Assembly: GCA_007376385.1 (NCBI GenBank)
Contig: VMGC01000001.1
Coordinates: 343,898-407,897, forward strand
Direction of reading: 5' to 3'
From: Parcubacteria group bacterium Gr01-1014_8
GTDB lineage: Bacteria; Patescibacteriota; Minisyncoccia; Phycocordibacterales; UBA2100
Length of the DNA stretch: 64,000 nt
Shown: piece by piece, positions 1 through 23,600 of the stretch
Layout of the letters: every line of letters begins with the position of its first letter
How positions within the stretch are numbered: the first letter of the stretch is position 1
Notes under the pieces: model-generated
What the model saw: only the letters and a program-made list of their open reading frames with translations
The model's database searches: none
What the model was told of the DNA's origin: nothing
Made by a program: the position numbers and the translations under genes

Positions 1-3000
1 TCGGGAGGTGTCCCGACGTGGGGAACTGATTTGACTTCCGGAGGTGGCGCGGATGGCACATGGTCGACGACTACCTCACAAGTCTCTGGCACGTTGATCA
101 ATTACCCTAACAATGCATCCGACATCGTTGCCATCGGCTCCACGGCGACGACATCTGCGGAGTACTGGTTTGACCCGAATACGACGATTGCCTATCTTTC
201 AGGAAAAGTTGGCATCAGCACCACCTCCCCCTACTCAAAGTTAACGTTGTGGGGGAGCGCCTCACTATTTGAGGCAGTGAACACATCTTCGACAACGATC
301 TTTTCAATAGGCCAATCAGGCGCGACAACAACGAATCTCGGAATTTCGGGAATAGCAAGTTCCCTGCTCAAAACAACATCTACCGGAGGAGTGGTTGCTG
401 CGATACCCGACACCGATTACCTCAATACCGCAAGTTCGATCGAATTACTTGGCGACGTCGCCGCGATGACGGAGAATTACGGCGATCTCTTGTATTGGAA
501 TGGCTCCGCGTGGGCTGATCTTGCGACGTCATCGCTTGGGATTGCGATCAGTGACACCACGGGAACACTTGCAGTTGCACGAGGCGGCACTGGTCAAACC
601 ACATTCTCCTCCTCGCAACTTCTCTACGGAAACGGAACCAACGCGCTTTCGTCTGTCGCAACCTCCTCACTCTCCGCAGGAACCGGTGTCACGTTCTCTG
701 GAACTGCCGGCTCTCTCGTTGGAGGCACTGCACTCACCATCAATACACCGTGGACCATCTCCGGAAACAACATCTACAACAACAACATTGCAAATGCCGC
801 CATCGGCACATCAACTCCCTACGCCACCACCACGATCTGGGGTAACACTGCTTCAAAGATATTTGAAGTCGTTGCAAACGCTTCATCCACCGTATTCTCT
901 GTTGCACAAAGTGGAGCTACTACAACCAACCTCGGCATTACTGGCGTCACCAATTCGCTCTTGAAGACCACATCAACCGGTGGAGTCGTTGCAGCGGTCG
1001 CAGGCACGGATTACGCGACACTGTCACAAACATTTGGAAAAGCGTGGGAGATCGACGGTAACGGCTTTACCGGATTCCTTGCACCGACAACAACGCAGAA
1101 AGTGTGGATCGGGCAGGCGTCGTCGACGCTTCTATCGGTGAATGGCCCTGCATACTTTGGCTCAACCGCAACCTCCTCATTCTCAACCGCCGGCGTCCTC
1201 ACGCTTGCCACCGATCTCGCAGTCACCGAAGGAGGCACCGGAGCTTCCACGCTCACCGGCCTTCTCCAAGGAAACGGCACGTCGGCGTTCACCGCCATCA
1301 CTGATTCATCCACGGTGGGACAGATACTCCGTGTGACTGGTGCATCAACATACGCCTGGGGAGCACTGAACCTTGCAGACACTGACGCCATCACCGGAAC
1401 GCTTCCCATCTCCAACGGAGGCACCAACAACACCACCTACTCCACCAACGCGCTCCTCTACTTTGACGGAACATCCATCACTGCTACTTCCACCAGACCC
1501 CTCTACGTCGGCGCTATCAATGCCACCACAACAGCCACCTCCACTTTTGCAGGAGGCATCTCTGTTCTCAACTTCGCACAGACAGGAACAGCAACAAGCA
1601 CGCTCGCAAACGGGCTCACCTTAACCGGTGGCTGTGTCATGGTGAACGGAAACTGCATCTCACCCGTTGGGAACTCCTCCATCGAAGATTTGAACGACGT
1701 TGCTGCGATGACGGAGAACTATGGAGACCTTCTTGGATGGAACGGCAGCACGTGGACTGACTTTGCCACCACCTCACTCTTCACCGGTTCCAACGGGCAG
1801 ATGCTTGCATACGCGAATGGCGGGTGGACGGGAGTTGCAACAACAACAGCCGGCACTGGTCTCACATACACCGGCTCTGCGTTCAATGTTGACCTTGGTA
1901 CCTCTATTAGCGCAGCTGAGATCGCAGACGGCGATCACGGCGACTTCACATACACCAGCGGTGTTGCAGCCATCGATGCAAACGCCGTCACCCTCGGCAC
2001 CGACACAACAGGGAACTACGTTGCAACACTCGCAGATTCAGGCGGAGGAACACTCACCATCTCCAACTCAGGCAGCGAGACAGCGGCAGTGACAGCCTCC
2101 CTCAACCTTGGCAACGCCAACATCTGGACTGGCAAGCAGAACTTCTTTGGTTCTGCATCGTCGACGCTGTTCTCAGCGAACTGGCTCAAAGTCGGTCAAA
2201 CAGCATCAACCACATTCGATTCCGCTGGCAACGCAACCATCGGCGGCACCTTGAACGTCACCGGTCAAACTACACTTGCCACTTCACTCACTGGATTACT
2301 CAAAGCAACCGCAGGAGTTGTCTCCTCTGCAACAGAAGGCACTGACTACCTCTCCAATGCACTCCGCGATTGGTCAGTACAAGGCAACGGATACCTTGCA
2401 CCAACGACAACGAGAGGAATCATCGTTGTTGCATCATCCACCATCGGCGCGGGAGGACAAGCGACGGGGCTCACCATTTCAGGAGGCGCGACGACGACGG
2501 GGAATGCGTATTTTGCAGGGAATGTGGGTGTTGGGACAGCTGCACCAAGTCAAAAATTGCAAGTTGTTAACGGCGCTATTGATATCAACACCGACGACCA
2601 GTTCTTGTACTTCGGTAGCGGGGACGCCGGCATCAGGGAAAGCGGTGCCAATTTGAAATTTGAGACGTATACGGGCGCTGCACTCACCGAAAAAATGAGA
2701 ATTACTGGCGCAGGCAACGTCGGCATCGGGACCACCACTCCCGCAACCCTCCTCTCCATCGCCGGCACGAGCGGCCTCTTTGCCTCCACGACCGCCACCT
2801 CCACCTTCCAAGGCGGCGGGATTAACTTGCTCACGGCGGCGGGGAATACGGGATGCTTTGCGGTGAATGGGACGTGTCTTTCCAATACCGCTTCCGGCAT
2901 CGTCGGAAGCGGCACCACCGGACAATTTCCGTACTATGCCGCCAACGGCACGACTTTGACGGCGACCTCGACACTTTTCGTCTCGACCGCGAGCAATGTT

Positions 3001-6000
3001 GGGATCGGTGCCACCTCTCCCGCAGCAAAGTTAGACGTCGAAGGTTCCGGTGCGGTCTTGACCGACATCATGGTAGGCAACTCACAGGCCAATGCAAACT
3101 TCGGTATTTCCGCGGCAGGAGTTCCCCACCTTTGGACGAACAATGCCTCGTGGCCGCTTGTGCTCGGTGTCGGTGGCGCAGAGAAAATGAGAGTGCACAC
3201 GGATGGAAACGTAGGGATCGGAGCAGGTGCAACGGGTCCCGGGGCACTCCTCACGGTTGACTCTGGTGCAGCGTCTCTCACGGACATCTTGGTCGGCAAC
3301 TCGCAAGCGAACGCGAATTTCGGAATCTCCGCAGCGGGCGTAGCCCATCTGTGGTCAAATAATTCAAGTTGGCCTCTTGCGTTCGGCATTGGAGCCGCGG
3401 AAAATATGCGAATCCACACGAACGGCAACGTGGGGCTCGGGAACACCTCCCCCTCCTACAAACTCGACGTCGCAGGGTTCATCAACACCGACCAATTCTC
3501 CGGCTACAAGCAGAACGGCACGACCATTCTCTATTCATCTTCGACGCTTGCCACGATGTTCGGCGGCTACCAGGCCGGCAATGGTCAAGTGCAATCAGGA
3601 ACCGGACTCTACAATACCGCGTTTGGCTATCAGGCGCTCTTGAGCGCCACGTCGTCTAGCAGAAGCACAGCGGTCGGCTTTTCAGCGCTCGCAAGTCAGG
3701 CGAATGCCAATGGCAACGATGCGCGTAATACCGCAGTTGGTTCCCAAGCGCTCGGCGGCACAACGTACGGTTACTACAACACAGCTGTCGGCTCTGATGC
3801 TCTCGCTGCCAACACGACCGGATACTTCAACAGCGCATTTGGCCAGGGCGCGCTCACTGGCAATACGACCGGCCGCGATAACATTGCAATTGGCTACAAT
3901 TCCGTGAGTCAAAGTACAGCCGCCCTCGAAAATATAGGTATCGGCAACTCCTCGCTTTCAGGAGCGTCGCTCACGGGGGCAGACAACATCGCTATCGGTC
4001 GGCAGGCTGGGAGCGCCATGTCGAGCGGGAGTTACAACATACTGATTGGCCAATATCTCTACAACAGCGGCACCGTCTTTACTGGCTCAAACAACATCAT
4101 CATCGGGCGCGACATCGGCTCGACCGCATCTCCCTTGGTTTCGACGACAACAAGCAACGCGCTCAACATCGGCAACTTGATTTTCGCGACCAGTCTCGGC
4201 ACGGCGGACACTCTTTCGACGGGTAATGTGGGTATTGGAACAGCGGCACCGAATTATCAACTTTCAAACAACTCCGCGAGTAATAACCTGGATTCGGGTT
4301 CCACGGGGCTCTCGACCGCAAGTAGTTTCAACTGGGCGAACAACGGCTCCGGCTACGGTGCAGGATTGTATAACGCAAGCGCCAATTCGGATGCAAACGG
4401 GCTGTTGGTAAAAATTCGCGGTACGGCCTCTACCAACAAAATTCTCTCGCTCGACACGGGCACGACGCAAGCCGGCGCGGGAACAAATGTGCTGACGGTA
4501 TTAGGAAGCGGCAACGTCGGCATTGGGACGACGAGTCCGCGCAGCGCCCTCTATTTCCAGGCGAACAGTAGCGATCCATCGTTAACATCATGGACAGGCA
4601 TAGGGACGATGCGCGCTAGTACTGGTGTAGAACTTGCGATGGGTGCAGACGATACGACACCTTTCGGCGCGTGGCTGCAAACGAAAGACAGCACAAATGG
4701 CGGTACATCCTATCCACTGCTCCTCAATCCTCTCGGCGGCAACGTTGGCATCGGGACGACTACGCCTCAAACGGCGTTGCATGTAAACGGTATTCTCGCG
4801 GCAACGCCAAGCTACGGCTTTTACTGGTACAACGGGGCAACATTCAAAGGCGCACTCAAGCATAACTCATCCAACGATAACCTTGAGATATACACCGCCT
4901 CTGATGGCAGCACGCCGCGGCTCACAGTCCAAAGTTCTTCCGGCAACGTCGGTATCGGGACGACCAGTCCCGTGTCGATACTTGCTGTTGCTGGTGCCAA
5001 TCCTGTACTTACCCTCAATCAAACGAGTAGCGGTAATGTTTCTGGCTTAAAGATAACGAATGGAGTAAATACGCTAGGCACATTTACAGTAGCAATAGAT
5101 ACAGGCGAGGTCAGGATAGGTGGTACGTCTAGCGGCGGTTATTATGATACTTTCTACGCCGATGGTTCGGAAAGGATGAGGATTACAGCAGCAGGCAACG
5201 TCGGCATCGGGACGACGACGCCGCAGTGGCTTTTGAATCCGACTTCGGCAAGCGCATCACAACTTGCCCTTTCGGCGGGGGCGGGCATCGCGCAATGGAC
5301 GTTTAGGAATGCAGGCGGGAATTTGTATCTCTCAACAACTACCGTTGCAGGAACCGCAACGACATCGATAAGCGCGCTTGAGATTGCGGGCGGAGGATTA
5401 GGAACGACAACCGTGAGAGGGCTAAACATCAGCGCTGGCGCAACATCAACGTCTAATGTGGGCTTCTCACTCACGAGCGGATGCTTTGCAACGCCCGCGG
5501 GCTGTATCTCGGGCGTTGGCGATTCTTCCATCGAAGCATTGAACGACGTTGCTGCGATGACGAAAAACTTCGGTGACTTACTGTATTGGAATGGCACAAC
5601 ATGGACTGATCTAGCAACGTCGTCGCTTGCGGTAAATTTCTCCGACCTCATTGGTTCAGCGACAGATGCACAGGTTACGAATGCGCTCACAATTTCCGGC
5701 GGCGTGATTTCGGGGACGAACACGGTGTCGGGTACGTGGAATACGACAAACACGCTTACCATCGGGAACGGCGGCGACCGCATCGACGTCAATTCGAGCG
5801 GATGGGATGTGACGGACAGCGTGATTTCAGGCGCAACCTATCAAGGCAACACGATTGGCACCACCTACGGAGGCACAAATGCGACAGGTTTCAGCAGCCA
5901 TGCGCTTCTTGCATTTAACGGTACGAGCATCGTCGCAACGTCTACTATCGGCTTTCAGTCATTTAATGCGACATCAACCACTGCGACGTCGACCATTGCT

Positions 6001-8856
6001 GGCGGCCTTGCAGTCGAGACCTCCGGCCTCGTGTACGACTACTCGACCAACCGCGTCGGCATTGGGACGGCGAGCCCTTCCAACAAATTACATATTGCAT
6101 CATCCGCGAATGACTCAACGCTTTTCATACAGCAAACGTCTGGCACACAGCGAGCTGATATCCGGATCGACAACGACGGCGGCTATATGCTTATCGGCCG
6201 CGAAAACAGTGCTGGCGGATCACTTGCGGTCGGTTCGACCGGCTATTTTGGCGTCATGAATGTCAACAATGCCTACGGTCTGCAATTTGGTACCAACAAC
6301 ACCGTCCGAGCGACGATCGACTCCTCCGGCAACGTCGGCATCGGGACGACGAGTCCAGCGACTTCGCTTTCAGTATCGGGAAGCGGGTACCTCACTGGCG
6401 CGCTTGGCGTAGGCGCGGTCGCGACGGGCTTCACCAACCTTCTCGTCAATGACAACTCAAACACTGCGCACAATAACGATGAGGGTATTGTTGTGAAAAA
6501 TACAAACACTGGCAGTTCTGCCGGCGCTAGCATCAATCTTCGAAACGACGGCACATATCATGGATTCATGCAGATGAATTCTGGGGCAAACACATCATTG
6601 GCGGGAGCAAATAGTTTCAACATCGGTGCTGAGCACAACATTAATTTCGGATTCATCACCAATGATGCGCTTCAGATGACATTGAATACCACCGGTCTCG
6701 GCATCGGGAACACCTCCCCCTCCTACAAACTCGATGTCGCGGGGTTCATCAACACCGACCAATTCTCCGGCTACAAGCAGGCGGGGAATACTATACTGTA
6801 TGCGTCGAGCACGAATGCCACGGTATTTGGTGGACAAGGCGCAGGAAGCGCGATGCAAACGTCTGGAACCGGTGCGTACAACACCGCGTTTGGGTACGGT
6901 GCCCTTACTACAGCGACATCGTCTAGTAGAAGCACTGCAATTGGATTTAATGCACTCGCCAACCAAGCGAACAGTAACGGCAACGACGCACGCAACACGG
7001 CCGTCGGTTCCGACTCTTTGGCGGCAACTACGTACGGCTACTACAACGTCGGCGTCGGCGCCTCGGCGCTCACCGCCAACACGACAGGCGCTTTCAACGT
7101 GGCACTTGGTGTCGGGGCTTTGCAGACGGCAACATCCACGAACAACGTGACTGCCATCGGCTACAACGCGCTCGGCGCTATGATTTGTTGCGGCCCGGCA
7201 GGGACGACGCCGGCAAATGTCGTGGTAGGCCACCAAGTCGCTCGTCAAGCGACGACTGCCTACGGTATTACAGGAATCGGGTATGGCGCCTTGGATTCGC
7301 TCACGACCGGACACGACATCGTGGCACTTGGATCGCAGGCAGGGCATATGGTCACGACTGGCACTAACAGTATATTCCTTGGCGATCTCTCCGGCTTCAA
7401 AGACAGTGCCGGTGCGAACACCGCCATCACGGGCGACAACAATATCATCATCGGCAATAACCAGCTCATGATCCCGAACGCCGCCGGCTCCAATCAACTC
7501 AACATCGGCAACCTCATCTTCGGCACCAGCCTCTCAACCGGCGCGACAGTTTCGACCGGCAACGTCGGCATTGGGACGACGAGCCCACGTTCGATTCTCC
7601 ACGCTGTGGCCGGTGCTTCGGGAGTTTTGCCCAACGCAGGCACGACCTTCACTATGGAGAGCAACACGGCCAACTACTTGAGCATGCTCACAGCGAGCAA
7701 CGCCGCAAACGGAATTCTCTTTGGTACGCCGACGAGCGCAATCGATGCCGGCATTCTCTACAACAGCAACGGTTCGGCACGAGATTTGCAGTTCCGCACC
7801 GGCGTCAACAACACGCGGATGACGATTGATTCTACCGGCAACGTCGGCATCGGGACGACGACGCCGTTTCGCAAACTTTCTATCACGGATGCAGTATCGA
7901 CCGCACAGCAAGCGATCGCGTACGACTCGACGCGCTGGACTGACCTCCTTACAGACTCTGTTGGGGATCTCACCATCAATCCGCAAGGCGACGATGTGTT
8001 CTTGAATGCGGACAATCTTTGGGTGTGTACCGGCGGCTCGTGTCCGAGCGGGACGCCAGCAGGGACGGGTAATTTGATCGTTGAAACGAAATTGGGCGTG
8101 GCCAGTTCGACACCGTTCGCGACGCTCGGTGTGAAGGGTTCTGCTGCATCGACGGCATATACGTTCATGACAACCAACAGTTCCGATTCTCCGACGTTCA
8201 ACATCCAAGATAACGGCAATGTGGGTATTGGTACCACGACGCCCACGAAACAATTTTCCATCTCGAGTCTCCTCTATGTCGGTGCAGGCGGTGCAACAGG
8301 AATGGGAACAGCGACATCGACTTTCCAAGGTGACATCAAGATAATTGGTAAACTTGATGTCGGTACGATTGACCCGGTCTATACAATAGACGGCACGAAG
8401 TATGCGACGTATGGTCATTCAACCGTTGGTATCAAAGAAGAGGTAACGGCAAAACTGGCAGTCAACGAGTATGACGAAGCTCGAGATTTGTATCGAACAA
8501 CAATTCGTTTCGATGAGTTGGAAAAGGGAAGCGACCTTTGGCTTTTCTATGAGATCACTCGATTCGGACTTGAATGGGAGCATCTCGTCGTGAACTTGAC
8601 GCCGGCATTCGACGGCCGCGTGTTCTACGAAGAAGATATCGTCGAGAACTCTCTGACAATATACGCCGACAAGTCCGGCTTTGTTTCTGCGCGGCTCATC
8701 GCGGACAGATTCGACGCAGAAACGTGGCCGAACATTCGTCCTGACCAGGACGGAAATACCGAAGGCACGCACAATATAACTTCGAAATTGCCGGGAGGGG
8801 TGCTCCGAGCGGCAGCTACAGCAACCGAAGCCGTCTCATCGTGGTTCAATGAATAA
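1..8856 (+). CDS. Giant repetitive surface protein (more than 2941 aa; 5' end lies outside the window). It has about 30 'GNVGIGTTSP...KL.V'-type repeats, resembling phage-tail-fibre or adhesin-like repeats.
   Basis: The ORF is open from nt 1 (no in-frame stop upstream of the annotated TTG at 31) to the TAA at 8854-8856. The NVGIGT motif recurs throughout. A 'SIEDLNDVAAMTENYGDLLGWNGSTWTD' module occurs three times (nt ~420, ~1680, ~5520). There are internal tandem and segmental duplications. Composition is Thr/Ser/Gly/Asn-rich. Confidence 0.8.
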   Translation, partial: SGGVPTWGTDLTSGGGADGTWSTTTSQVSGTLINYPNNASDIVAIGSTATTSAEYWFDPNTTIAYLSGKVGISTTSPYSKLTLWGSASLFEAVNTSSTTIFSIGQSGATTTNLGISGIASSLLKTTSTGGVVAAIPDTDYLNTASSIELLGDVAAMTENYGDLLYWNGSAWADLATSSLGIAISDTTGTLAVARGGTGQTTFSSSQLLYGNGTNALSSVATSSLSAGTGVTFSGTAGSLVGGTALTINTPWTISGNNIYNNNIANAAIGTSTPYATTTIWGNTASKIFEVVANASSTVFSVAQSGATTTNLGITGVTNSLLKTTSTGGVVAAVAGTDYATLSQTFGKAWEIDGNGFTGFLAPTTTQKVWIGQASSTLLSVNGPAYFGSTATSSFSTAGVLTLATDLAVTEGGTGASTLTGLLQGNGTSAFTAITDSSTVGQILRVTGASTYAWGALNLADTDAITGTLPISNGGTNNTTYSTNALLYFDGTSITATSTRPLYVGAINATTTATSTFAGGISVLNFAQTGTATSTLANGLTLTGGCVMVNGNCISPVGNSSIEDLNDVAAMTENYGDLLGWNGSTWTDFATTSLFTGSNGQMLAYANGGWTGVATTTAGTGLTYTGSAFNVDLGTSISAAEIADGDHGDFTYTSGVAAIDANAVTLGTDTTGNYVATLADSGGGTLTISNSGSETAAVTASLNLGNANIWTGKQNFFGSASSTLFSANWLKVGQTASTTFDSAGNATIGGTLNVTGQTTLATSLTGLLKATAGVVSSATEGTDYLSNALRDWSVQGNGYLAPTTTRGIIVVASSTIGAGGQATGLTISGGATTTGNAYFAGNVGVGTAAPSQKLQVVNGAIDINTDDQFLYFGSGDAGIRESGANLKFETYTGAALTEKMRITGAGNVGIGTTTPATLLSIAGTSGLFASTTATSTFQGGGINLLTAAGNTGCFAVNGTCLSNTASGIVGSGTTGQFPYYAANGTTLTATSTLFVSTASNVGIGATSPAAKLDVEGSGAVLTDIMVGNSQANANFGISAAGVPHLWTNNASWPLVLGVGGAEKMRVHTDGNVGIGAGATGPGALLTVDSGAASLTDILVGNSQANANFGISAAGVAHLWSNNSSWPLAFGIGAAENMRIHTNGNVGLGNTSPSYKLDVAGFINTDQFSGYKQNGTTILYSSSTLATMFGGYQAGNGQVQSGTGLYNTAFGYQALLSATSSSRSTAVGFSALASQANANGNDARNTAVGSQALGGTTYGYYNTAVGSDALAANTTGYFNSAFGQGALTGNTTGRDNIAIGYNSVSQSTAALENIGIGNSSLSGASLTGADNIAIGRQAGSAMSSGSYNILIGQYLYNSGTVFTGSNNIIIGRDIGSTASPLVSTTTSNALNIGNLIFATSLGTADTLSTGNVGIGTAAPNYQLSNNSASNNLDSGSTGLSTASSFNWANNGSGYGAGLYNASANSDANGLLVKIRGTASTNKILSLDTGTTQAGAGTNVLTVLGSGNVGIGTTSPRSALYFQANSSDPSLTSWTGIGTMRASTGVELAMGADDTTPFGAWLQTKDSTNGGTSYPLLLNPLGGNVGIGTTTPQTALHVNGILAATPSYGFYWYNGATFKGALKHNSSNDNLEIYTASDGSTPRLTVQSSSGNVGIGTTSPVSILAVAGANPVLTLNQTSSGNVSGLKITNGVNTLGTFTVAIDTGEVRIGGTSSGGYYDTFYADGSERMRITAAGNVGIGTTTPQWLLNPTSASASQLALSAGAGIAQWTFRNAGGNLYLSTTTVAGTATTSISALEIAGGGLGTTTVRGLNISAGATSTSNVGFSLTSGCFATPAGCISGVGDSSIEALNDVAAMTKNFGDLLYWNGTTWTDLATSSLAVNFSDLIGSATDAQVTNALTISGGVISGTNTVSGTWNTTNTLTIGNGGDRIDVNSSGWDVTDSVISGATYQGNTIGTTYGGTNATGFSSHALLAFNGTSIVATSTIGFQSFNATSTTATSTIAGGLAVETSGLVYDYSTNRVGIGTASPSNKLHIASSANDSTLFIQQTSGTQRADIRIDNDGGYMLIGRENSAGGSLAVGSTGYFGVMNVNNAYGLQFGTNNTVRATIDSSGNVGIGTTSPATSLSVSGSGYLTGALGVGAVATGFTNLLVNDNSNTAHNNDEGIVVKNTNTGSSAGASINLRNDGTYHGFMQMNSGANTSLAGANSFNIGAEHNINFGFITNDALQMTLNTTGLGIGNTSPSYKLDVAGFINTDQFSGYKQAGNTILYASSTNATVFGGQGAGSAMQTSGTGAYNTAFGYGALTTATSSSRSTAIGFNALANQANSNGNDARNTAVGSDSLAATTYGYYNVGVGASALTANTTGAFNVALGVGALQTATSTNNVTAIGYNALGAMICCGPAGTTPANVVVGHQVARQATTAYGITGIGYGALDSLTTGHDIVALGSQAGHMVTTGTNSIFLGDLSGFKDSAGANTAITGDNNIIIGNNQLMIPNAAGSNQLNIGNLIFGTSLSTGATVSTGNVGIGTTSPRSILHAVAGASGVLPNAGTTFTMESNTANYLSMLTASNAANGILFGTPTSAIDAGILYNSNGSARDLQFRTGVNNTRMTIDSTGNVGIGTTTPFRKLSITDAVSTAQQAIAYDSTRWTDLLTDSVGDLTINPQGDDVFLNADNLWVCTGGSCPSGTPAGTGNLIVETKLGVASSTPFATLGVKGSAASTAYTFMTTNSSDSPTFNIQDNGNVGIGTTTPTKQFSISSLLYVGAGGATGMGTATSTFQGDIKIIGKLDVGTIDPVYTIDGTKYATYGHSTVGIKEEVTAKLAVNEYDEARDLYRTTIRFDELEKGSDLWLFYEITRFGLEWEHLVVNLTPAFDGRVFYEEDIVENSLTIYADKSGFVSARLIADRFDAETWPNIRPDQDGNTEGTHNITSKLPGGVLRAAATATEAVSSWFNE

Positions 8857-8927
8857 TTATGGTGAAAAATATGTTGTTTGGGATACTCGGAAATCGTGCG
8901 CTGACTCCGGCCGAGGTGAAGCATCTC

Positions 8928-8968
8928 AAGGTCATATCGAGGTCGATATCAAGGTCGGACCTCGATAC
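8928..8968. repeat. REP-like repeat copy 1 (atatcgaggtcgatatcaaggtcggacctcga), 3' of the transposase gene
   Basis: Hairpin tcgaggtc...gacctcga. It shares the core 'atatcaagg(t/c)c(g/c)gacctcg' with copies at 9677 and 9766. Confidence 0.6.
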
Positions 8969-8977
8969 GCTTGTGTG

Positions 8978-9664
8978 TCACGGTGCCGCCGATTCCACGC
9001 GGAAGTCGAGCCATTCCGAGACCTGCGATTTAAAGTCGAGAGGCGAATCAAAGTACTCCGACAGCGCTGCGGCGTTCACGATGCGGCTCTCCAGACGTTT
9101 CTCACGAGTGTAATCGTGAAAGCTCGACCAACGGTATCCGTCGAGGAATTTTTCCGCCGCGCGCCGGTTTGCGATGCCGGTTTCTTTCCAAGTCGGCTCG
9201 ATGAGCTTGACGGGGTTCAGATGGATATACGAAACGAGGTATTTGAAGTATCGGTCGTCTGCCACGTGCGTCGCCTTATATTTCCCCTGAAAAAGGACGC
9301 CGCTTCGTTTTTGGCGGGTGTTAAAATACATCGTATACCCGGTTTGGAGCTTCTGCATGAATCGGGAAATACCGCCGTTCCTAATCTCACGAAGCATGAG
9401 GTGGAAGTGATTCGGCATGAGGCAGTGCGCGCATATGTCCACGAGCGGTTTTCCCCGATCAAGCGAGAGAAGATGGGGAAGAGAGGTCTGGATTTCGTTG
9501 CTGATGTGCACGGTGTTCTCGCCGTTTGCAAGAAACAAAAGCGCGAGAAAGCGCTTATGGTCGGGTACAGAGGTAAAGATTTTCCGTTTTTCAGTGCCGC
9601 GGTTGTAGACATGATACGTCTCATCGACAGTAAACGGTATGCGTCTCATCTTCTGTATTTTCAC
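8978..9664 (-). CDS. IS200/IS605-family Y1 (HUH) transposase, REP-associated tyrosine transposase (RAYT)-like
   Basis: HUH motif 'HCLMPNHFHLML' and catalytic Tyr motif 'YIHLNPVK'. The gene is flanked by REP-like repeats. Length is 228 aa. Confidence 0.75.
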   Translation of the reverse strand: MKIQKMRRIPFTVDETYHVYNRGTEKRKIFTSVPDHKRFLALLFLANGENTVHISNEIQTSLPHLLSLDRGKPLVDICAHCLMPNHFHLMLREIRNGGISRFMQKLQTGYTMYFNTRQKRSGVLFQGKYKATHVADDRYFKYLVSYIHLNPVKLIEPTWKETGIANRRAAEKFLDGYRWSSFHDYTREKRLESRIVNAAALSEYFDSPLDFKSQVSEWLDFRVESAAP

Positions 9665-9676
9665 TCGCGGTGCCTA

Positions 9677-9712
9677 AATATCAAGGCCCATATCAAGGCC
9701 CGACCTCGATGG
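9677..9712. repeat. REP-like repeat copy 2
   Basis: aaatatcaaggcccatatcaaggcccgacctcgatgg. Same orientation as copy 1. Confidence 0.55.
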
Positions 9713-9765
9713 CGACGATGGCGATGGGAATGGAGATACTGTTGCCGACCGGCAGCAATATCTCA

Positions 9766-9800
9766 AATATCAAGGTCATATCAAGGTCGGACCTCGGGGG
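9766..9800. repeat. REP-like repeat copy 3
   Basis: aaatatcaaggtcatatcaaggtcggacctcggggg. Confidence 0.55.
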
Positions 9801-9806
9801 TGGTGG

Positions 9807-10064
9807 TTGCGCCTCGCCGCGAGGCGCTACGACACAGAAAAGTGGCCAAATCTACGGCCGGATCAAGACGGCTATACAACGGGCACGCATGTAATTAGTT
9901 CGAAGCCAAAGGCAGGCGAGCAGGCGAGGGATGAGAGCAAAGTGTCGCATGTATCGGCTGTAGTAACTGCGACCAGCGCTATCGCGCAGATCTCGTCATT
10001 CGCGACAAGTACCATTGAATTTGCGACCAGCACATTCTTCAAACTGCTAGCATGGTTTCAGTAA
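9807..10064 (+). pseudogene. Fragment encoding a diverged copy of the giant protein's C-terminal motif (…EKWPNLRPDQDGYTTGTHVISSKPK… vs …ETWPNIRPDQDGNTEGTHNITSKLP…). Likely a remnant or alternative 3' cassette.
   Basis: Protein-level similarity of ~25 residues to aa ~2890-2915 of ORF 31..8856. The nucleotide sequence is diverged. No upstream N-terminal domain. Confidence 0.35.
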
Positions 10065-10149
10065 ACGATATTTAAAGTTCAAGATGATTTAAAAAATGAA
10101 AAGTCCAAAACAGAGACAGAGATGCAATTCATGAGTATACTTATTGACA

Positions 10150-10707
10150 ATGCGTAAGCGAGATTTCTTCTACATCGCACTTCTCTGCTTTCTGCCTGCA
10201 GCTGCCTTCGCGGTGACCATGACCGTAAACACTGTCGTGACGGGCAATGTAAGTGTAGTCGGAGCGCTCTCGAAGGGTTCCGGTACGTTCATGATTGATC
10301 ACCCGCTTGACCCGAAAAATTCGCTCCTGTACCATTCGTTCCTCGAATCTCCTGACGTCAAGAACATCTACGACGGTGTCGCGAATCTCGACAAGAACGG
10401 AGAGGCCACGATCGCGTTACCAGGTTATTTTCTTGCACTCAACAAGGATTTCAGGTATCTCGCGACATCAATGAGCGGGCCTATGCCGAATCTGCATCTC
10501 ATGCGCGGAGTTCGGAGAGAGTGGTTTGTAGGCGACCCTACATTCAGGATAGCTGGGGGCGTACCGGGCGGCACTATCTCCTGGCAGGTAACGGGTATAC
10601 GCAAGGATCCTCTCATTGTCGCGAATCCTATTATAGTCGAAGTTGAAAAGGGTGCTGAAGCACTGATATTAAAGGGGGAGTGTCTCTTTGAACTCCTTTG
10701 CAGATGA
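10150..10707 (+). CDS. Secreted protein, paralog A of a three-gene family sharing a conserved ~120 aa C-terminal domain (FxIDHPLDP…LYHSF(V/L)ESP(D/E)VKN(I/L/F)YDG…SWQVTGIR(H/K)D)
   Basis: Signal peptide 'MRKRDFFYIALLCFLPAAAFA'. The ATG is the 3rd codon of the listed ORF. The C-terminal domain is alignable with ORFs 10688..12028 and 12019..12750. Confidence 0.7.
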   Translation: MRKRDFFYIALLCFLPAAAFAVTMTVNTVVTGNVSVVGALSKGSGTFMIDHPLDPKNSLLYHSFLESPDVKNIYDGVANLDKNGEATIALPGYFLALNKDFRYLATSMSGPMPNLHLMRGVRREWFVGDPTFRIAGGVPGGTISWQVTGIRKDPLIVANPIIVEVEKGAEALILKGECLFELLCR

Positions 10708-12028
10708 ACATATAATTATCATGCACACAAAACTTTCGACATATTCGTTGTTTTGGTGGGCTCTTGCACTCATCGTCGGCATTTCTTTTTTGCTTGCGCT
10801 TCTCTTTCCTGTAGAGAGATTGTCAGCCGCGCCCACGGTAAAAATCTATCTTGATTCAGGAACATCATTCGTCATCCCCGGAGATTGGAACTCTTCAAAC
10901 AATTCTATCGAAGTTATCGGCGGCGGCGGCGGCGGCGGTACTCCAAGCGCTCTTTGTAGCGCCGGAGGAGGAGGCGGCGCATATTCAAAAGCCGCGAACG
11001 TCTCGCTTACGGCCGGTGCGTCGGTTACCTACGCTATTGGTGATCGCGGTATCGAACAGACGGCAGGGGGTGATACGTATTTTTGTAATTCGACGTTGAA
11101 CTGCGCTTCCATTTCTGGTACTGCCGTGCAGGCAGGTGCGAAGGGCGGAAATGGCGCCAGCGGTGGCACTGGAGGATCTGGCGGTGCATCCGCAAGCGGC
11201 GTTGGAAGCACCAAATTTAGTGGGGGAAATGGCGCCGGAACTGGAAGCAGCACTGGCGGCGGCGGCGGAGGTGCTGCTGGACTAAATGGTGCAGGTAATA
11301 ACGGCTCGGGAACAACTGGCGGTAGTGGCGATGCTGGAAACGGCGGTGCAGGTGGGACCGCAAATAATCCCGGTGGTGCGGGTACCGAATACGATTCTGT
11401 ACACGGTTCCGGCGGAGGCGGTGGCGGAGCAACGGGCGCGGGCGGTGGCGCAGCGGGAGGGAATTTTGGGGGCGCCGGCGGCGGCGGATGCGCATCTGGA
11501 GGCATCGGTAAACGAGGGATGATTGTTCTTACGTACGTTTCGTCTGCGACTCTTACACTTTCCGGAAATGTTAAATTCGCCGGCAATTTAACCATCACTA
11601 GTACTTTAGCAAAAAGCTCCGGCACATTTGTGATTGACCATCCGCTCACGCCGCGCACGCATCTTTTGTACCACTCATTTGTTGAATCACCGGAAGTGAA
11701 GAATCTCTACGACGGTATTGCAAAACTTGACGCGCAGGGCGAGGTAGCAATCGAGCTTCCCGATTATTTTGAAGCACTGAACAAAGATTTCCGCTATCAA
11801 TTCTTTCCTCACTTCGAAGCGATGCCTGGTCTCTATGTGAAGCAAGAAGTGAAGGACAACTCATTCATCATAGCTGGAGGAAAGCCGGGCGGAGAAATAT
11901 CGTGGCAAGTCACGGGTATCCGCCACGATGCGTTTATTCTCGCAAATCCGATTATCGTTGAGGTCCCGAAAACAAACTCGACTGTCGTGCCGAGGGGTAT
12001 GTGTCTGTTTGAGCCGTTATGCAAATGA
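10688..12028 (+). CDS. Secreted/membrane-anchored paralog B. It has a long Gly-rich (GGN repeat) low-complexity middle region and the family C-terminal domain.
   Basis: TM/signal 'LFWWALALIVGISFLLALLF'. About 230 aa of G/A/S/N/T low complexity. C-terminal 'FVIDHPLTPRTHLLYHSFVESPEVKNLYDG…ISWQVTGIRHD'. Overlaps paralog A by 20 nt. Confidence 0.7.
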   Translation: MNSFADEHIIIMHTKLSTYSLFWWALALIVGISFLLALLFPVERLSAAPTVKIYLDSGTSFVIPGDWNSSNNSIEVIGGGGGGGTPSALCSAGGGGGAYSKAANVSLTAGASVTYAIGDRGIEQTAGGDTYFCNSTLNCASISGTAVQAGAKGGNGASGGTGGSGGASASGVGSTKFSGGNGAGTGSSTGGGGGGAAGLNGAGNNGSGTTGGSGDAGNGGAGGTANNPGGAGTEYDSVHGSGGGGGGATGAGGGAAGGNFGGAGGGGCASGGIGKRGMIVLTYVSSATLTLSGNVKFAGNLTITSTLAKSSGTFVIDHPLTPRTHLLYHSFVESPEVKNLYDGIAKLDAQGEVAIELPDYFEALNKDFRYQFFPHFEAMPGLYVKQEVKDNSFIIAGGKPGGEISWQVTGIRHDAFILANPIIVEVPKTNSTVVPRGMCLFEPLCK

Positions 12029-12750
12029 GCGCTGTTCAGAGTGCGACGGTGTGTGGCGTATTGTCACTTGTGTTGGCGATTCTTTTCCCCATGCGAACTT
12101 TCGCGGGCTACGCTGAAAGTGCGTATTACTCGCAGTCGACCTACTACTCGCAGTCGACCTACTACTCGCAGTCGACCTACTATTCACAGGGAACATATGT
12201 GACGACGTTTAGCAATAACGCGACGGCGGGAACTAATTTCACCGTCGCGGGCACGATTAATAAAGGTTCCGGTTCATTCGTCATCGACCATCCGCTCGAT
12301 CCAAAAAATAAGCTGCTCTATCACTCGTTCGTTGAATCTCCTGACGTGAAGAATTTCTACGACGGTATAGCAACGCTCGACACAAAGGGCGAAGCAGTCA
12401 TTCGGCTTCCCGCGTATTTTATGGCACTCAACAAAGAATTTCGGTACCAACTAAAACCCATTGGCGGGCCGCAGCCTGATCTGCACATTAAGGATGAAAT
12501 CTCAGGAAATCGCTTTACGATTGCGGGTGGCGGGCCACGCGGGCGCGTATCGTGGCAGGTCACGGGGATCCGTCATGATCCGTACATCGAAGCGAATCCT
12601 ATCGAGGTCGAGGTAAAAAAAGGTACAGATCCCGAGAAAAGCGTCTTCGTGCTCTATGGAGGGTTTTTGCACGAGGACATTTATCCGCAGACGATCCAAC
12701 CCGCGATATCTACATATATGAGAAAGATACTTAGTTTGTTCGGCAATTGA
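12019..12750 (+). CDS. Secreted paralog C with a (YYSQST)n repeat and the family C-terminal domain
   Basis: Signal peptide. A perfect 18-nt tandem repeat encodes YYSQST x3-4. C-terminal 'FVIDHPLDPKNKLLYHSFVESPDVKNFYDG…VSWQVTGIRHD'. Confidence 0.7.
   Translation: MQMSAVQSATVCGVLSLVLAILFPMRTFAGYAESAYYSQSTYYSQSTYYSQSTYYSQGTYVTTFSNNATAGTNFTVAGTINKGSGSFVIDHPLDPKNKLLYHSFVESPDVKNFYDGIATLDTKGEAVIRLPAYFMALNKEFRYQLKPIGGPQPDLHIKDEISGNRFTIAGGGPRGRVSWQVTGIRHDPYIEANPIEVEVKKGTDPEKSVFVLYGGFLHEDIYPQTIQPAISTYMRKILSLFGN
12124..12195 (+). repeat. 18-nt tandem repeat (tactactcgcagtcgacc) x3 plus degenerate flanking copies, coding YYSQST
   Basis: Direct reading of sequence 12121-12195. Confidence 0.8.
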
Positions 12751-12800: not shown

Positions 12801-13991
12801 ATGAAAAGGTCCACAGTGCTTTACGCCGTGTCCGCTCTTGTTATTGGAGGTTTTCTTGCGTACTGGTTTGTTCCTCTCGGGCCTGCATATTCTGAAGCAA
12901 ATACCATCGCGGATGGAGCATCAAATTTTAAAGAGCTCGCGGCGCGCTTCGGCGATCTCGCTCGCGAAAAGGGAGGAGCATATGCATTCGAGGTGTTGAA
13001 ACGCGCTGAATTGCCGCCGAATACTGACCTGCATTTGTTGGGACATGAGGTCGGAAACATTCTATACGAACAGAAAGGTGTCGATGGTATTGCGGATTGC
13101 ACGCAGGATTTTAGAAACGCCTGCTCGCATGCAATTGTTATCGGCGCTTTGAATGAGTTCGGCGGTGAGGCTGCATTACCTCTCATAAGCGATGCGTGCA
13201 AAAAGGCTCCAGGCGGAAGCGGAGCGTACACGATGTGTTATCACGGACTTGGCCATGGCGTGTTCGCGTTCTACAGCTATGACCTTTCAAAAACCGCTGA
13301 ATTTTGCAGAAAGACCGGGACTCCCGAATACCACGAACGAGAATATGTTGAATGCGTCGGAGGTTCGGTGATGGAATTGATGGGAGGAGGCGGGCATGAT
13401 AGGGAGGCGTGGCTTGCGGCGAGGGAGAAATATCTCGACCCGCATTCACCGCTCTCGCCGTGTATGGACAGCGCTGTGCCGGAAAGAGCGAAAATAATGT
13501 GCCTTACATATCTGACACCTCGTCTGTGGGAATTAGCAGGTATTGATATGGGAAACCCCTCACCTCATATGTTTGCAACTGCGTTCTCGTATTGCGATGC
13601 GATCCCTCGCTCTCGCCCAGAACTTCGCGGTGCCTGCTACGGAGGGTTTGGCAAAGAATTCTTTCCGCTCGTAGCCTCGCGCGATATTCGCGATGATGTA
13701 TCGTATTCAGACAGGCAACTCTCTACCGTCATCGATTGGTGCAGTTTTGCAGGGGATGTCGAAGGAACGTATGCGTGTGTGGGGGATGCGGTTGCGTCCG
13801 CATTCTGGGGTGGGGAGAAAGATCCGAAAACAGCGTTTAGGCTCTGCGGCGCAGCAGATGGAACGTTGCAAGATGCATGTTTCGAACGACTCGCCGATGA
13901 AGTGACGATGTATATGCGAGGAGCAGAGAAAGATGAGCTATGCGCGCAGATCCCCGCACGTCTCGAGACCAAATGTTCAAAAAGTAGTTAG
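12801..13991 (+). CDS. Membrane-anchored Cys/His-rich repeat protein, family member 1 (motifs CSHAIVIG, CYHGLGHGV, CYGGFGKEF)
   Basis: N-terminal TM 'LYAVSALVIGGFLAYWFVPL'. Periodic Cys-x2-(H/G)-G-x-G-(H) repeats. Paralogous to 8 other ORFs in 13-31 kb. Confidence 0.65.
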   Translation: MKRSTVLYAVSALVIGGFLAYWFVPLGPAYSEANTIADGASNFKELAARFGDLAREKGGAYAFEVLKRAELPPNTDLHLLGHEVGNILYEQKGVDGIADCTQDFRNACSHAIVIGALNEFGGEAALPLISDACKKAPGGSGAYTMCYHGLGHGVFAFYSYDLSKTAEFCRKTGTPEYHEREYVECVGGSVMELMGGGGHDREAWLAAREKYLDPHSPLSPCMDSAVPERAKIMCLTYLTPRLWELAGIDMGNPSPHMFATAFSYCDAIPRSRPELRGACYGGFGKEFFPLVASRDIRDDVSYSDRQLSTVIDWCSFAGDVEGTYACVGDAVASAFWGGEKDPKTAFRLCGAADGTLQDACFERLADEVTMYMRGAEKDELCAQIPARLETKCSKSS

Positions 13992-13992
13992 T

Positions 13993-15036
13993 ATGCGGTT
14001 TCTGATGTGGATGGGCGGAGGAGTGCTTGCCGCTCTTTTTTCGTTTTTCCTGTTCCATTCATTGTATGCTGGGGGCGATCTATTCGTGCCGCATGAGTAC
14101 GCACCATTCGAAGAACAACGTGCGTATTGGCAACATCTCATCGAAAAAGAAGGTGCCGAAAACGCTCTCACTGCATTTTCTGTCCGAGTCGGATCATTAT
14201 CTCTGAATACGCAGCATCAATTGGCTCACTCGTTCGGCGCTGCGCTTTTCCAGGCGGAAGGTATTGGTGGCATTTTCATATGCGATGCGCGATATTCGTT
14301 TGGTTGTTTCCATCAGTTCTTAGGAGATGCGATACAGGCGCTTGGTATCGAGCGTGTTCCGGATCTGAACACACGTTGCTTTGATGCGTCATCCGTAAGT
14401 CCCATTTCTTGTACGCACGGCATTGGTCACGGGGTCCTCGCCTCGCTTGGGTATGATGATATAGCTCTCCAAAAAGGGCTCGAGATATGCAAAGGTCTGC
14501 CGGGAACGGAGCCCATTGGAGGATGTTATGGAGGCATTTTTATGGAATACAACGTACGCACAATGCTCGCAGAGCAGGCGACGGTACGAGAGTACGAAGG
14601 AAATGTGTATGCGCCATGCGATTCGCTTGCGGCTGAATTTGTTCAAGGTTGCATATATTGGCAGCCACAATGGTGGCTTGTGACAGTGCTTGATGGGGTC
14701 TCTTCGGAAAAAGCGTATGCGAAAATGGGTTCATATTGCCGAGAATTCGCAAAAACACCGGAGTTATTGCGTGCATGTTTTGAAGGCTTGGGAAATATTG
14801 TCGAAGATGAGGCGGAGTATGAGCCATTGCAGGCGCGGAGGCTTTGTGACGCCGCAGGCGCGGGTACTCTGAGCAGCGTATATTGTCGCTCCGTCGGCGC
14901 GAATCATTTTGGCATTGATGGCGGGGAAGATCAGGCTGTGTTGGTGTGCGAAGATCTTCAAGGAGACAAGAGAGCATATTGTATGGCGTATGCAAAAAAT
15001 GAGATAGGCCTCGCGCCGGAATTACGTGAATTATGA
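13993..15036 (+). CDS. Membrane-anchored Cys/His-rich repeat protein, family member 2 (CFHQFLGD, CTHGIGHGV, CYGGIFME)
   Basis: Start taken at the internal Met 'MRFLMWMGGGVLAALFSFFLF' right after the upstream stop. The listed ORF begins at 13933 overlapping the previous gene. Confidence 0.6.
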   Translation: MRFLMWMGGGVLAALFSFFLFHSLYAGGDLFVPHEYAPFEEQRAYWQHLIEKEGAENALTAFSVRVGSLSLNTQHQLAHSFGAALFQAEGIGGIFICDARYSFGCFHQFLGDAIQALGIERVPDLNTRCFDASSVSPISCTHGIGHGVLASLGYDDIALQKGLEICKGLPGTEPIGGCYGGIFMEYNVRTMLAEQATVREYEGNVYAPCDSLAAEFVQGCIYWQPQWWLVTVLDGVSSEKAYAKMGSYCREFAKTPELLRACFEGLGNIVEDEAEYEPLQARRLCDAAGAGTLSSVYCRSVGANHFGIDGGEDQAVLVCEDLQGDKRAYCMAYAKNEIGLAPELREL

Positions 15037-16166: not shown

Positions 16167-16230
16167 AGAACCCTGCGACAGAAAGCGTGGGGCGTTCTCG
16201 GCGAGTCCGGTAAAGTACGTTCATTCATTT

Positions 16231-17739: not shown

Positions 17740-17767
17740 CGAACCCTAGTATAGCGGAAGAAGTTTT

Positions 17768-21407: not shown

Positions 21408-21433
21408 ACACTATTTACTCAATTGTTGGCACA

Positions 21434-22549: not shown

Positions 22550-22563
22550 CTGGAGGGTCCCTT

Positions 22564-23420: not shown

Positions 23421-23446
23421 CATCGAGTAATTATAGCTCGTAGTAA

Positions 23447-23600
23447 AGGTTCCTCGGAGCAAGCTCCGAGGTATTATGGAGCTCGCTTCGCTCGCGCAGT
23501 CTCGCAGCAGAGCTGCGAGATATTGAACCTGTGTTTGCTCCTCGGCTCGGAAATGCAAAAGTGCTCTTTTGCGTTTCTCTCGCAACGCTCGCAAATAAAG
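23447..23600. repeat. MITE-like intergenic hairpin repeat, copy A (reverse orientation relative to copy B at 28385). Contains palindromes cctcggagc…gctccgagg and gaaatgc(a)aaag…cttttgcgtttc, plus a ~50-nt palindromic insertion.
   Basis: The reverse complements of 23447-23475 and 23525-23569 match 28420-28448 and 28389-28418 near-exactly. Confidence 0.6.

What the first reader, a model, noticed from the sequence alone, without database searches (positions are those of the whole stretch)
1..8856. Giant (more than 2941 aa) repeat surface protein truncated at the window edge
The reading frame is open from nt 1, so the gene starts upstream of the window. The product contains about 30 'GNVGIGTTSP(x)…KL(D/H)V' repeat starts. 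A 'S(I)E(D/A)LNDVAAMT(E/K)N(Y/F)GDLL(G/Y)WNG(S/T)(T/A)WTD' module is reused three times. The C-terminal ~150 aa domain is globular. The composition and repeat logic resemble phage tail fibre or fibrous adhesin proteins, but there are no phage genes nearby, so it is more likely a cellular surface fibre, as seen in reduced-genome or episymbiotic bacteria. Most minus-strand ORFs inside this gene are GC-driven artefacts.
Basis: seen in the sequence. Interest (0 to 1): 0.6.

Follow-up and report, generated by a model that had tools for sequence, protein, structure and literature searches.

The report
Giant tail-fibre-like surface fibre, Parcubacteria
The first 8.9 kb of the window are the last three quarters of an intact gene from an ultra-small (Parcubacteria) bacterium. 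It encodes a 4,051-residue, membrane-anchored fibre built from phage-tail-fibre-like modules, which most likely lets the cell grip other cells.

Summary
Frame 1 is open from nt 1 to the stop at 8854-8856 (2,951 codons). The 'GNVGIGTTxP...L' motif occurs 16-17 times, not about 30. The 'DVAAMT' module occurs three times.

The product is 100% identical to residues 1101-4051 of GenBank TSC87231.1 (4,051 aa, Parcubacteria group bacterium Gr01-1014_8).

The repeat unit matches the crystallised trimeric beta-helix modules of Bdellovibrio MAT fibres (Bd2133 1.4e-11, Bd3182 7e-6). The motif is their 'capping loop'. Two ~280-aa blocks match phage tail-fibre and tail-spike proteins.

The C-terminal ~110-aa core is confidently predicted as a beta-sandwich. 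It weakly resembles phage receptor-binding tips and belongs to an unnamed domain family of about 1,200 clusters; every named member but one (a Bacteroidota fragment) is from Parcubacteria/Patescibacteria or is labelled only 'bacterium' or 'metagenome'.

The full protein starts with an HTH_17 domain and one hydrophobic helix, an anchor shared by 62 of 120 giant homologues whose C-terminal ends differ.

The setting is chromosomal, not prophage, and synteny is conserved in two relatives.

Verdict: a cellular, MAT-like adhesive fibre with a different anchor, so a new variant of a known kind. The adhesin role and the trimer state are inferred.

The parts
1..8856 (+). 3' three quarters (codons 1101-4051 plus stop) of the giant fibre gene. 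The product is identical to TSC87231.1.
   Evidence: Open frame with no stops. 100% identity and coverage to P0001.
1..2520 (+). Proximal shaft (window aa 1-840). It holds repeated ~70-aa modules (aa 72-140 ~ 268-338, 61% identity), three 'GGTG/N...LL.GNG' motifs, three 'LLK...GTDY' motifs, and DVAAMT modules 1 and 2 (aa 146-180 and 560-594).
   Evidence: Internal BLAST and motif counts. No PDB sequence match.
2503..3480 (+). First block of beta-helix modules, each bounded by a 'GNVGIGTxxPxxxL' capping-loop motif (aa 842, 907, 1000, 1071, 1144).
   Evidence: Motif list. Aa 827-978 align to Bd2133 (8OND). The profile of 11 modules hits 8OND at 1.4e-11 and 8OJN at 7e-6. phrog_9942 tail fibre matches aa 894-1024.
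3430..4260 (+). Block A of 'NTAxGxxAL' repeats (aa 1144-1420), duplicated as block B.
   Evidence: Internal duplication, 78% identity over aa 1144-1260 vs 2233-2349. No PDB sequence match.
4210..5310 (+). Second block of capping-loop beta-helix modules (motifs at aa 1410, 1506, 1582, 1650, 1734).
5323..5778 (+). Cys-loop (CX6C) plus DVAAMT module 3 (aa 1775-1926), a copy of aa 486-648.
   Evidence: 48% identity, E 4e-27. Cys pairs. phrog_18345 tail fibre covers aa 1623-1954.
6037..6720 (+). Third block of capping-loop modules (motifs at aa 2019, 2112, 2233). Aa 2088-2183 give the best match to Bd3182.
   Evidence: 8OJN_C at 4.6e-7, with 'GRVGVGTTAPTSALHV' aligned to 'GNVGIGTTSPATSLSV'.
6697..7590 (+). 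Block B of 'NTAxGxxAL' repeats (aa 2233-2530), tail-spike-like.
   Evidence: phrog_4636 tail spike at 2.8e-28, best stretch aa 2271-2381. tblastn finds 42 phage records at 35-43% identity, annotated as tail fibre or tail spike.
7546..8325 (+). Fourth block of capping-loop modules (motifs at aa 2522, 2615, 2741).
8326..8853 (+). C-terminal tip domain (aa 2776-2951). The high-confidence beta-sandwich core is aa ~2810-2905 (nt 8428-8715). There is no S74 chaperone domain.
8978..9664 (-). IS200-like / REP-associated tyrosine transposase-like gene. It is flanked by direct repeats of 'ATATCAAGGTCGGACCTCGAT' at 8922-8966, 9678-9710 and 9766-9798.
   Evidence: Pfam Y1_Tnp 35.7 bits against a cutoff of 23. 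NCBIfam REP_Tyr_transpos 43.6 bits, below its cutoff of 80. Repeats.
9814..10064 (+). Relic of the last ~80 codons of a second tip-family domain ('LRLAARRYDTEKWPNLRPDQDGYTTGTHVISSKPK...').
   Evidence: blastp to the C-termini of P0004 (4e-13), P0016, P0002 and P0001 itself (47% identity). No DNA-level similarity to the live tip.
10144..12750 (+). Three secreted small proteins (10144-10707, 10688-12028, 12019-12750) that share a C-terminal 'IDHPLDP...' beta-sandwich domain. They are conserved neighbours of the fibre gene in relatives.

Best explanation
Window nt 1-8856 is the 3' end of an intact 12.15-kb chromosomal gene of a Parcubacteria (CPR) bacterium.

Proposed architecture of the 4,051-aa product:
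- It is held in the cytoplasmic membrane by its N-terminus: a cytoplasmic HTH_17-like domain followed by a single hydrophobic helix at aa 158-176.
- About 3,870 residues project outside the cell as a long fibre that is probably homotrimeric.
- The shaft is a chain of phage-tail-fibre-type modules:
  - 16-17 intertwined beta-helix modules, each ending in the 'GNVGIGTxxPxxxL' capping loop known from Bdellovibrio MAT fibres and S74-type phage spikes;
  - two ~280-aa tail-spike-like 'NTAxGxxAL' blocks;
  - four Cys-loop/'DVAAMT' modules.
- The fibre ends in a ~110-aa beta-sandwich knob instead of an S74 chaperone.

Proposed function: the knob, and perhaps clefts in the beta-helices, bind a surface molecule of another cell. 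The fibre therefore acts as a host or partner recognition adhesin of an episymbiotic cell, in the way phage receptor-binding proteins and Bdellovibrio MAT fibres do.

Within the family the anchor end is conserved and the distal end is exchangeable.

What is shown: gene integrity, organism, module homology, anchor architecture, mosaic ends, chromosomal synteny.

What is inferred: trimer state, surface display, adhesion, and a length of roughly 0.2 um. The length is scaled from the 550-Angstrom model of 922-aa Bd3182 reported in PMC10769870.
For: - Intact frame.
- Identity to TSC87231.1 from a 407,897-bp Parcubacteria contig.
- PDB sequence matches to Bd3182 (4.6e-7) and Bd2133 (1.9e-6). With a profile of 11 modules these become Bd2133 1.4e-11 (3 stretches), Bd3182 7e-6 and Bd2439 0.09.
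- The paper defines the capping loop and the trimeric intertwined beta-helix (PMC10769870).
- PHROG tail spike and tail fibre families match, as do 42 phage tail fibre or spike records.
- HTH_17 is found in 23 of 24 aligned N-termini. The most hydrophobic 19-mer of the whole protein is at aa 158-176.
- 62 of 120 giant homologues carry the HTH N-terminus. Of these, 13 carry an S74 (PF13884) domain, 15 carry this tip domain, and 34 carry neither.
- The tip is a confident beta-sandwich, and its nearest folds are phage receptor-binding or tail protein C-termini.
- CX6-7C pairs are consistent with an extracellular location.
- Many downstream genes are housekeeping genes. In two relatives the order is gatB - HTH protein - fibre - small knob proteins - Cys-rich paralogs.
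Against: - There is no experimental evidence for expression, trimerisation, surface display or binding.
- The HTH_17 match of this protein alone is just under Pfam's cutoff (26.6 vs 27 bits; 22.3 bits).
- I could not fetch the upstream flank of this very contig, so the absence of phage genes upstream is inferred from relatives.
- Most of the shaft (aa 1-840 and the 'NTAxG' blocks) has no solved homologue.
- GC3 of the gene (0.60) is above that of housekeeping genes (0.44-0.53). This could reflect foreign origin or merely codon choice for Thr, Gly and Ala.
Confidence: 0.8

Rival explanations
1. It is a prophage or phage-derived particle (tailocin, contractile injection system) tail fibre that merely lies in a bacterial contig.
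For: PHROG tail spike and tail fibre hits. tblastn hits to phage tail fibre genes. The tip fold is nearest to phage tail proteins. A mobile-element gene sits next to the 3' end.
Against: No ORF scanned in the 55 kb downstream matched a phage structural family. Relatives have gatB and secA upstream and the same cellular neighbours downstream. The N-terminus is an HTH plus membrane helix, not a baseplate-attachment domain. At 4,051 aa it is far beyond usual fibres. The adjacent mobile gene is an IS200/RAYT type, not phage.
Confidence: 0.05
2. It is a structural cell-envelope component (a spacer, S-layer-like coat or cell-cell tether that gives the fibrous coat seen on CPR cells) rather than a specific host-recognition adhesin.
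For: CPR predators show a thick fibrous coat attributed to giant membrane proteins (PMC8080830). The protein is anchored and very long. No ligand is known. NCBI names it a cell wall surface protein.
Against: The family shows a conserved anchor with interchangeable distal ends and a relic of a displaced tip at this locus. That is the pattern expected of recognition proteins under diversifying pressure. The modules are those of receptor-binding fibres.
Confidence: 0.12
3. It is a trimeric autotransporter adhesin (YadA-like), as JGI's pipeline names a few homologues.
For: JGI names 'trimeric autotransporter adhesin' for P0036, P0086 and P0108. The 'NTAxGxxAL' repeats look like YadA head repeats (my recollection, not tested).
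Against: Pfam finds no YadA anchor or any TAA domain. The C-terminus is a soluble beta-sandwich. The anchor is N-terminal. From general knowledge, CPR cells have no outer membrane to hold a beta-barrel anchor.
Confidence: 0.02

Closest known systems
Bdellovibrio bacteriovorus MAT (mosaic adhesive trimer) fibres, e.g. Bd2133 (PDB 8OND) and Bd3182 (8OJN); Caulton et al. 2024, PMC10769870
   Same: The beta-helix modules and their capping-loop motif match by sequence. Both are cellular rather than viral and are phage-fibre-like. Both have one conserved end and a variable distal end that is either S74 or non-S74. This protein is of the non-S74 kind. Both belong to bacteria that live off other cells.
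   Different: - The anchor differs. MATs have a signal peptide plus a conserved ~130-aa beta-rich domain. Here there is an N-terminal HTH_17 domain plus a membrane helix.
- This protein is four times longer (4,051 vs ~1,000 aa).
- The host is a CPR bacterium without an outer membrane.
- The tip fold is none of the six solved MAT tips by sequence (one search shows no tip match).
- CPR does not appear in the paper's list of MAT-bearing taxa.
Phage tail fibres and tail spikes of the S74 (endosialidase chaperone) type, e.g. T5 pb1 and K1F endosialidase; PHROGs 4636, 9942, 18345
   Same: Module types and the capping loop. 35-43% identity over ~180 aa to phage tail fibre or spike genes.
   Different: There is no S74 domain in this protein, although 43 of 120 homologues have one. 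It is not in a phage genome, it is membrane-anchored, and it is far longer.
Giant membrane proteins of CPR predators (Vampirococcus lugosii), PMC8080830
   Same: Giant (1.4-4.2 kaa) predicted membrane proteins of a CPR bacterium, proposed to form the fibrous coat and mediate host attachment.
   Different: Those are described with WD40, PKD, integrin, fibronectin and DUF11 domains, not tail-fibre beta-helix modules. No sequence comparison was made here.

Membership tests
MAT (mosaic adhesive trimer) fibre superfamily | Trimeric beta-helix shaft modules with the capping-loop motif (V-G-x-small-x-x-P-x-x-x-L) | tested here: met
   16-17 motif copies. The module profile hits Bd2133 at 1.4e-11 and Bd3182 at 7e-6. 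The loop aligns residue for residue.
MAT (mosaic adhesive trimer) fibre superfamily | Signal peptide followed immediately by a conserved ~130-aa beta-rich N-terminal domain | tested here: not met
   The full-length N-terminus is an HTH_17-like domain (aa 12-60), followed by a hydrophobic helix at aa 158-176. I had no Bdellovibrio N-domain sequence for a direct comparison.
MAT (mosaic adhesive trimer) fibre superfamily | Variable C-terminal tip (S74 or non-S74) on a conserved proximal end | tested here: met
   Of 62 HTH-anchored homologues, 13 have an S74 domain, 15 have this tip domain and 34 have neither.
MAT (mosaic adhesive trimer) fibre superfamily | Homotrimer displayed on the cell surface | not testable with these tools
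   Only monomer predictions were available. The trimer state is inferred from homology.
Phage tail fibre / tail spike | Encoded among phage structural genes | tested here: not met
   None of the 39 ORFs scanned in the 55 kb downstream matched a phage structural family, and many are housekeeping genes. Relatives have gatB and secA upstream. The native upstream flank was not retrievable.
Phage tail fibre / tail spike | C-terminal S74 intramolecular chaperone (for the S74 class) | tested here: not met
   No PF13884 hit and no SDxRxK motif.
Trimeric autotransporter adhesin | C-terminal YadA-type beta-barrel membrane anchor | tested here: not met
   No Pfam hit. The C-terminus is modelled as a soluble beta-sandwich plus helix.
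LPXTG 'cell wall surface anchor' protein (the GenBank name) | C-terminal LPXTG sortase signal followed by a hydrophobic tail | tested here: not met
   The only LPx[TSA]G match is 'LPNAG' at aa 3643, internal and without a tail.

The most novel reading that the evidence does not exclude
The HTH_17 - membrane helix - giant fibre layout has the same topology as ToxR-type one-component regulators. The fibre could be a contact sensor whose cytoplasmic DNA-binding domain couples host attachment to gene expression, or tethers the fibre to the nucleoid.

More broadly, these HTH-anchored fibres with swappable tips could be the main host-range determinants of Parcubacteria. The tip relic behind a mobile element would then record a recent tip exchange.
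Probability: 0.12. Interest if true: 0.8.

Novelty: new variant of a known kind. Interest (0 to 1): 0.5.

Why it matters
How uncultivated Parcubacteria find and hold their hosts is unknown. Work on cultivated CPR bacteria has centred on type IV pili.

A large family of phage-like fibres with a conserved membrane anchor and interchangeable tips gives concrete candidates for host-specificity determinants. The tips are small, soluble domains that could be expressed and used as probes to identify hosts in environmental samples.

The finding also extends the MAT fibre concept from Gram-negative predators to the CPR, with a different way of attaching the fibre to the cell.

The sequence itself is already public under a generic, and by the LPXTG test incorrect, name.

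Tried and rejected
- Pfam and NCBIfam on the whole protein gave no hits.
- PDB sequence searches with the proximal shaft and with the 'NTAxG' block alone found nothing at E up to 1.
- The tip profile searched against 1.84 billion representatives did not pull in the small-protein family.
- The tip has no match in the phage record collection.
- Attempts to get the native upstream flank failed. The look-up of encoding contigs has no record of P0001. The GTDB genome scan with the N-terminus found no relative.
- The afdb50 fold library was unavailable.
- Diversity-generating retroelement targeting of the tip: no template-like repeat of any part of the gene exists elsewhere in the window.
- Sortase anchoring is rejected.
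- Literature searches found no description of such fibres in Patescibacteria. This covers only the held library.
Full report
**1. The observation**

Frame 1 of the + strand is open from nt 1 to a stop at 8854-8856, which is 2,951 codons. The other five frames of the same DNA carry 72-151 stops, and their longest open stretch is 312 codons. The long frame is therefore not a product of base composition.

The translation is rich in Thr 14.6%, Gly 14.0%, Ala 11.6%, Ser 10.6% and Asn 8.1%.

- 11 exact GNVGIG;
- 15 NVG[IVL]G;
- 16 matches to a looser pattern that includes the following Pro and Leu, plus one variant copy.

Shuffles of the same composition give 0.06 matches.

The 'SSIEDLNDVAAMTENYGDLL.WNG..W.D' module is present three times, at aa 146, 560 and 1843.

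An internal BLAST shows that the protein is a mosaic of reused blocks:
- aa 1144-1420 recur at 2233-2530, with 78% identity over the first 117 residues;
- aa 486-648 recur at 1775-1926;
- aa 72-140 recur at 268-338;
- aa 994-1074 recur at 1065-1147.

**2. Identity of the gene**

A search of 5.8 billion proteins returned one sequence that is 100% identical over 100% of the query. It is P0001, 4,051 aa, GenBank TSC87231.1, named 'MAG: cell wall surface anchored protein [Parcubacteria group bacterium Gr01-1014_8]', on a 407,897-bp contig.

The window therefore starts at codon 1101 of a 12.15-kb gene.

The rest of the window is ordinary chromosome: Lnt, two sulfatases, GAPDH, shikimate dehydrogenase, DAHP synthase, dehydroquinate synthase, transketolase, PheT, GyrB and one tRNA-Thr. 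None of the 39 ORFs scanned against Pfam and/or PHROGs matched a phage structural family.

**3. What the repeats are**

Pfam and NCBIfam find nothing in the protein.

PHROGs find tail-spike family 4636 at 2.8e-28 (best stretch aa 2271-2381) and tail-fibre families 9942 and 18345.

Only two distinct PDB sequences (four entries in all) match by sequence. Both are Bdellovibrio bacteriovorus fibres: Bd3182 (8OJN, 4.6e-7, query aa 2088-2183) and Bd2133 (8OND, 1.9e-6, aa 827-978). In the Bd3182 alignment, 'GRVGVGTTAPTSALHV' lies on 'GNVGIGTTSPATSLSV'.

A profile built from 11 of the window's own modules (alignment A3) raises these matches to 1.4e-11 for Bd2133 (three stretches) and 7e-6 for Bd3182. 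It also adds Bd2439 at 0.09.

Caulton et al. 2024 (PMC10769870) solved these structures:
- They are intertwined homotrimeric beta-helices.
- Their edges are closed by 'capping loops' with the consensus V-G-G/N-small-x-x-P-x-x-x-L.
- The loop is shared with S74-type phage spikes.
- The fibres, named MAT for mosaic adhesive trimer, sit on the predator's surface, carry a conserved N-terminal domain and end in diverse adhesive tips.

The two 'NTAxGxxAL' blocks have no solved relative by sequence. They do match tail fibre or tail spike genes in 42 phage records at 35-43% identity.

**4. The tip**

The last 176 residues are shared by 16 of the 120 listed homologues. In ten of them the domain is terminal, and in six it is followed by a further ~200-560 residues.

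An AlphaFold2 model built on a 17-sequence alignment (A1) gives pLDDT above 90 for residues 55-150 of the modelled segment (window aa ~2810-2905). The fold is an eight-strand beta-sandwich with one helix.

Structure comparisons:
- Foldseek against predicted viral structures gives phage tail, minor-tail and tail-fibre proteins at E 2e-6 to 1e-3, with TM-scores of 0.35-0.49.

The fold resembles phage receptor-binding tips only loosely.

A profile search of 1.84 billion cluster representatives finds 1,214 clusters with this domain, 1,123 of them below 1e-10. The proteins are 160-5,205 aa long, and the domain mostly lies at or near the C-terminus. Most named members are from Kaiserbacteria, Uhrbacteria, Colwellbacteria, Liptonbacteria or unclassified Parcubacteria/Patescibacteria. 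Four are labelled only 'bacterium' or 'subsurface metagenome', one is an unclassified TARA/metaclust sequence, and one is a Bacteroidota fragment. All are 'hypothetical' apart from one JGI mislabel ('FlaG/FlaF family flagellin (archaellin)', P0385) and the unnamed TARA/metaclust record (P0417), and only one listed member carries any precomputed Pfam domain (P0360, PF04917).

There is no match in phage genome records.

**5. The anchor (outside the window, from P0001)**

- Residues 12-60 match HTH_17 over the whole model at 22-27 bits, just under the 27-bit cutoff. 23 of 24 aligned N-termini of homologues match it, the best at 4.5e-10.
- The most hydrophobic 19-mer of the entire protein is aa 158-176, within 'FLHKLTALITAFVLTFGAYAFV'.
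- There is no signal peptide and no LPXTG signal.
- Five of the seven cysteine pairs are CX6-7C loops, and three of these five directly precede one of the four DV modules (P0001 Cys pairs 849/857, 1645/1652 and 2928/2935, before the modules at aa 869, 1664 and 2947). This fits an oxidising, extracellular location.

I infer an N-in, type II orientation with about 3,870 residues outside.

Scaling from the 550-Angstrom model of 922-aa Bd3182 gives roughly 0.2 um. This is a rough inference only.

A profile of the N-terminus finds it in 62 of the 120 giant homologues. Of those 62, 13 carry an S74 domain, 15 carry this tip and 34 carry neither. That is the MAT logic, with one end conserved for retention and the other diversified, but the retention device is different.

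**6. Neighbourhood and relatives**

I could not retrieve the native upstream flank.

Two relatives with the same anchor and tip were retrieved: P0004 on a 156-kb JGI contig (L001) and P0007 on a 70-kb ENA contig (L002). Both show the following:
- Upstream lies gatB (plus secA in L002), then a ~290-320-aa protein with two HTH_17 copies. In L001, the only one inspected, it also has a C-terminal membrane helix.
- Next comes the giant gene.
- Downstream lie two or three small proteins with the 'IDHPLDP' domain, then Cys-rich paralogs.

These are the same families that follow the gene in the window. The locus is therefore vertically conserved chromosome, not a prophage.

The three small proteins (10144-12750) have signal peptides or anchors, short linkers and a shared ~110-aa domain. 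That domain's family has more than 5,500 members, mostly 170-320 aa, in Parcubacteria.

A shared fold class is likely. Homology is not shown.

**7. A relic at the 3' end**

Between the stop codon and the small genes lies a minus-strand IS200/RAYT-like gene (8978-9664). Y1_Tnp scores 35.7 bits, above its cutoff. The gene is flanked by direct repeats of 'ATATCAAGGTCGGACCTCGAT'.

Directly after it, nt 9814-10064 encode 'LRLAARRYDTEKWPNLRPDQDGYTTGTHVISSKPK...'. This matches the last ~55-60 residues of tip domains of P0004 (4e-13), P0016, P0002 and the live tip itself (47% identity). There is no DNA-level similarity to the live tip.

This looks like the stranded end of an older or alternative tip. 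It is consistent with replacement of the 3' end. Other histories are possible, for example loss of a second gene.

**8. Mechanism, rivals and novelty**

The best-supported reading is a cellular, membrane-anchored, MAT-like adhesive fibre (confidence 0.8 for what it is, lower for the adhesin role).

Rival readings:
- A prophage fibre is contradicted by the context and the anchor.
- A trimeric autotransporter is contradicted by the missing barrel anchor and the N-terminal anchoring.
- The GenBank name implies sortase anchoring, and the required signal is absent.
- A purely structural coat protein cannot be excluded (0.12).

I found no paper in the held library describing such fibres in Patescibacteria. 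CPR taxa do not occur in the MAT paper's supplementary list of other lineages. Giant CPR surface proteins as such are known (PMC8080830).

I rate it a new variant of a known kind, of moderate interest. The unusual points are the HTH_17 membrane anchor, the size, the size of the unnamed tip family, and the tip relic.

Noticed in passing
window 8922-9798 (gene 8978-9664, minus strand): An IS200/REP-associated tyrosine transposase-like gene is flanked on both sides by direct repeats of an 11-12-nt unit ('CATATCAAGGTC', or 33-nt 'ATATCAAGGTCGGACCTCGAT'). The overlapping + strand ORF 8849-9898 is probably spurious.
   Followed up: partly
window 9814-10064 (+): A stranded relic of the last ~80 codons of a second tip-family domain lies immediately after the mobile element. 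It is 47% identical to the live tip's tail and closer to the tips of relatives P0004 and P0016.
   Followed up: partly
   Followed up: partly
window 12801-31261, both strands: Nine paralogs of a membrane-anchored, Cys-rich family lie at 12801, 13933, 15033, 16231(-), 20208, 21434, 27176, 28447(-) and 30086. Each has 14-20 Cys, and most carry a 'C.H..GHG' motif. Two have an N-terminal cupredoxin-like domain. There is otherwise no Pfam hit. The family also lies next to the fibre gene in the relatives.
   Followed up: partly
L001 8773-9744 and L002 8567-9433 (relatives; the corresponding region is upstream of the window): A ~290-320-aa protein with two tandem HTH_17 domains is encoded directly upstream of the giant fibre gene in both relatives. 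In L001, the only one whose sequence was inspected, it also has a C-terminal membrane helix. L001 also has a second, divergent giant gene with the same HTH N-terminus on the opposite strand.
   Followed up: no
window 1-8853 vs the rest of the window: Third-position GC of the giant gene is 0.60, against 0.44-0.53 in housekeeping genes of the same window. The tip portion (0.52) is like the rest of the genome.
   Followed up: no
window 62295-63785 (+): An HTTM (vitamin K-dependent gamma-carboxylase-like) domain protein lies near the end of the window. It is preceded by a 403-aa, 16-Cys protein (60487-61698) with no family match.
   Followed up: no
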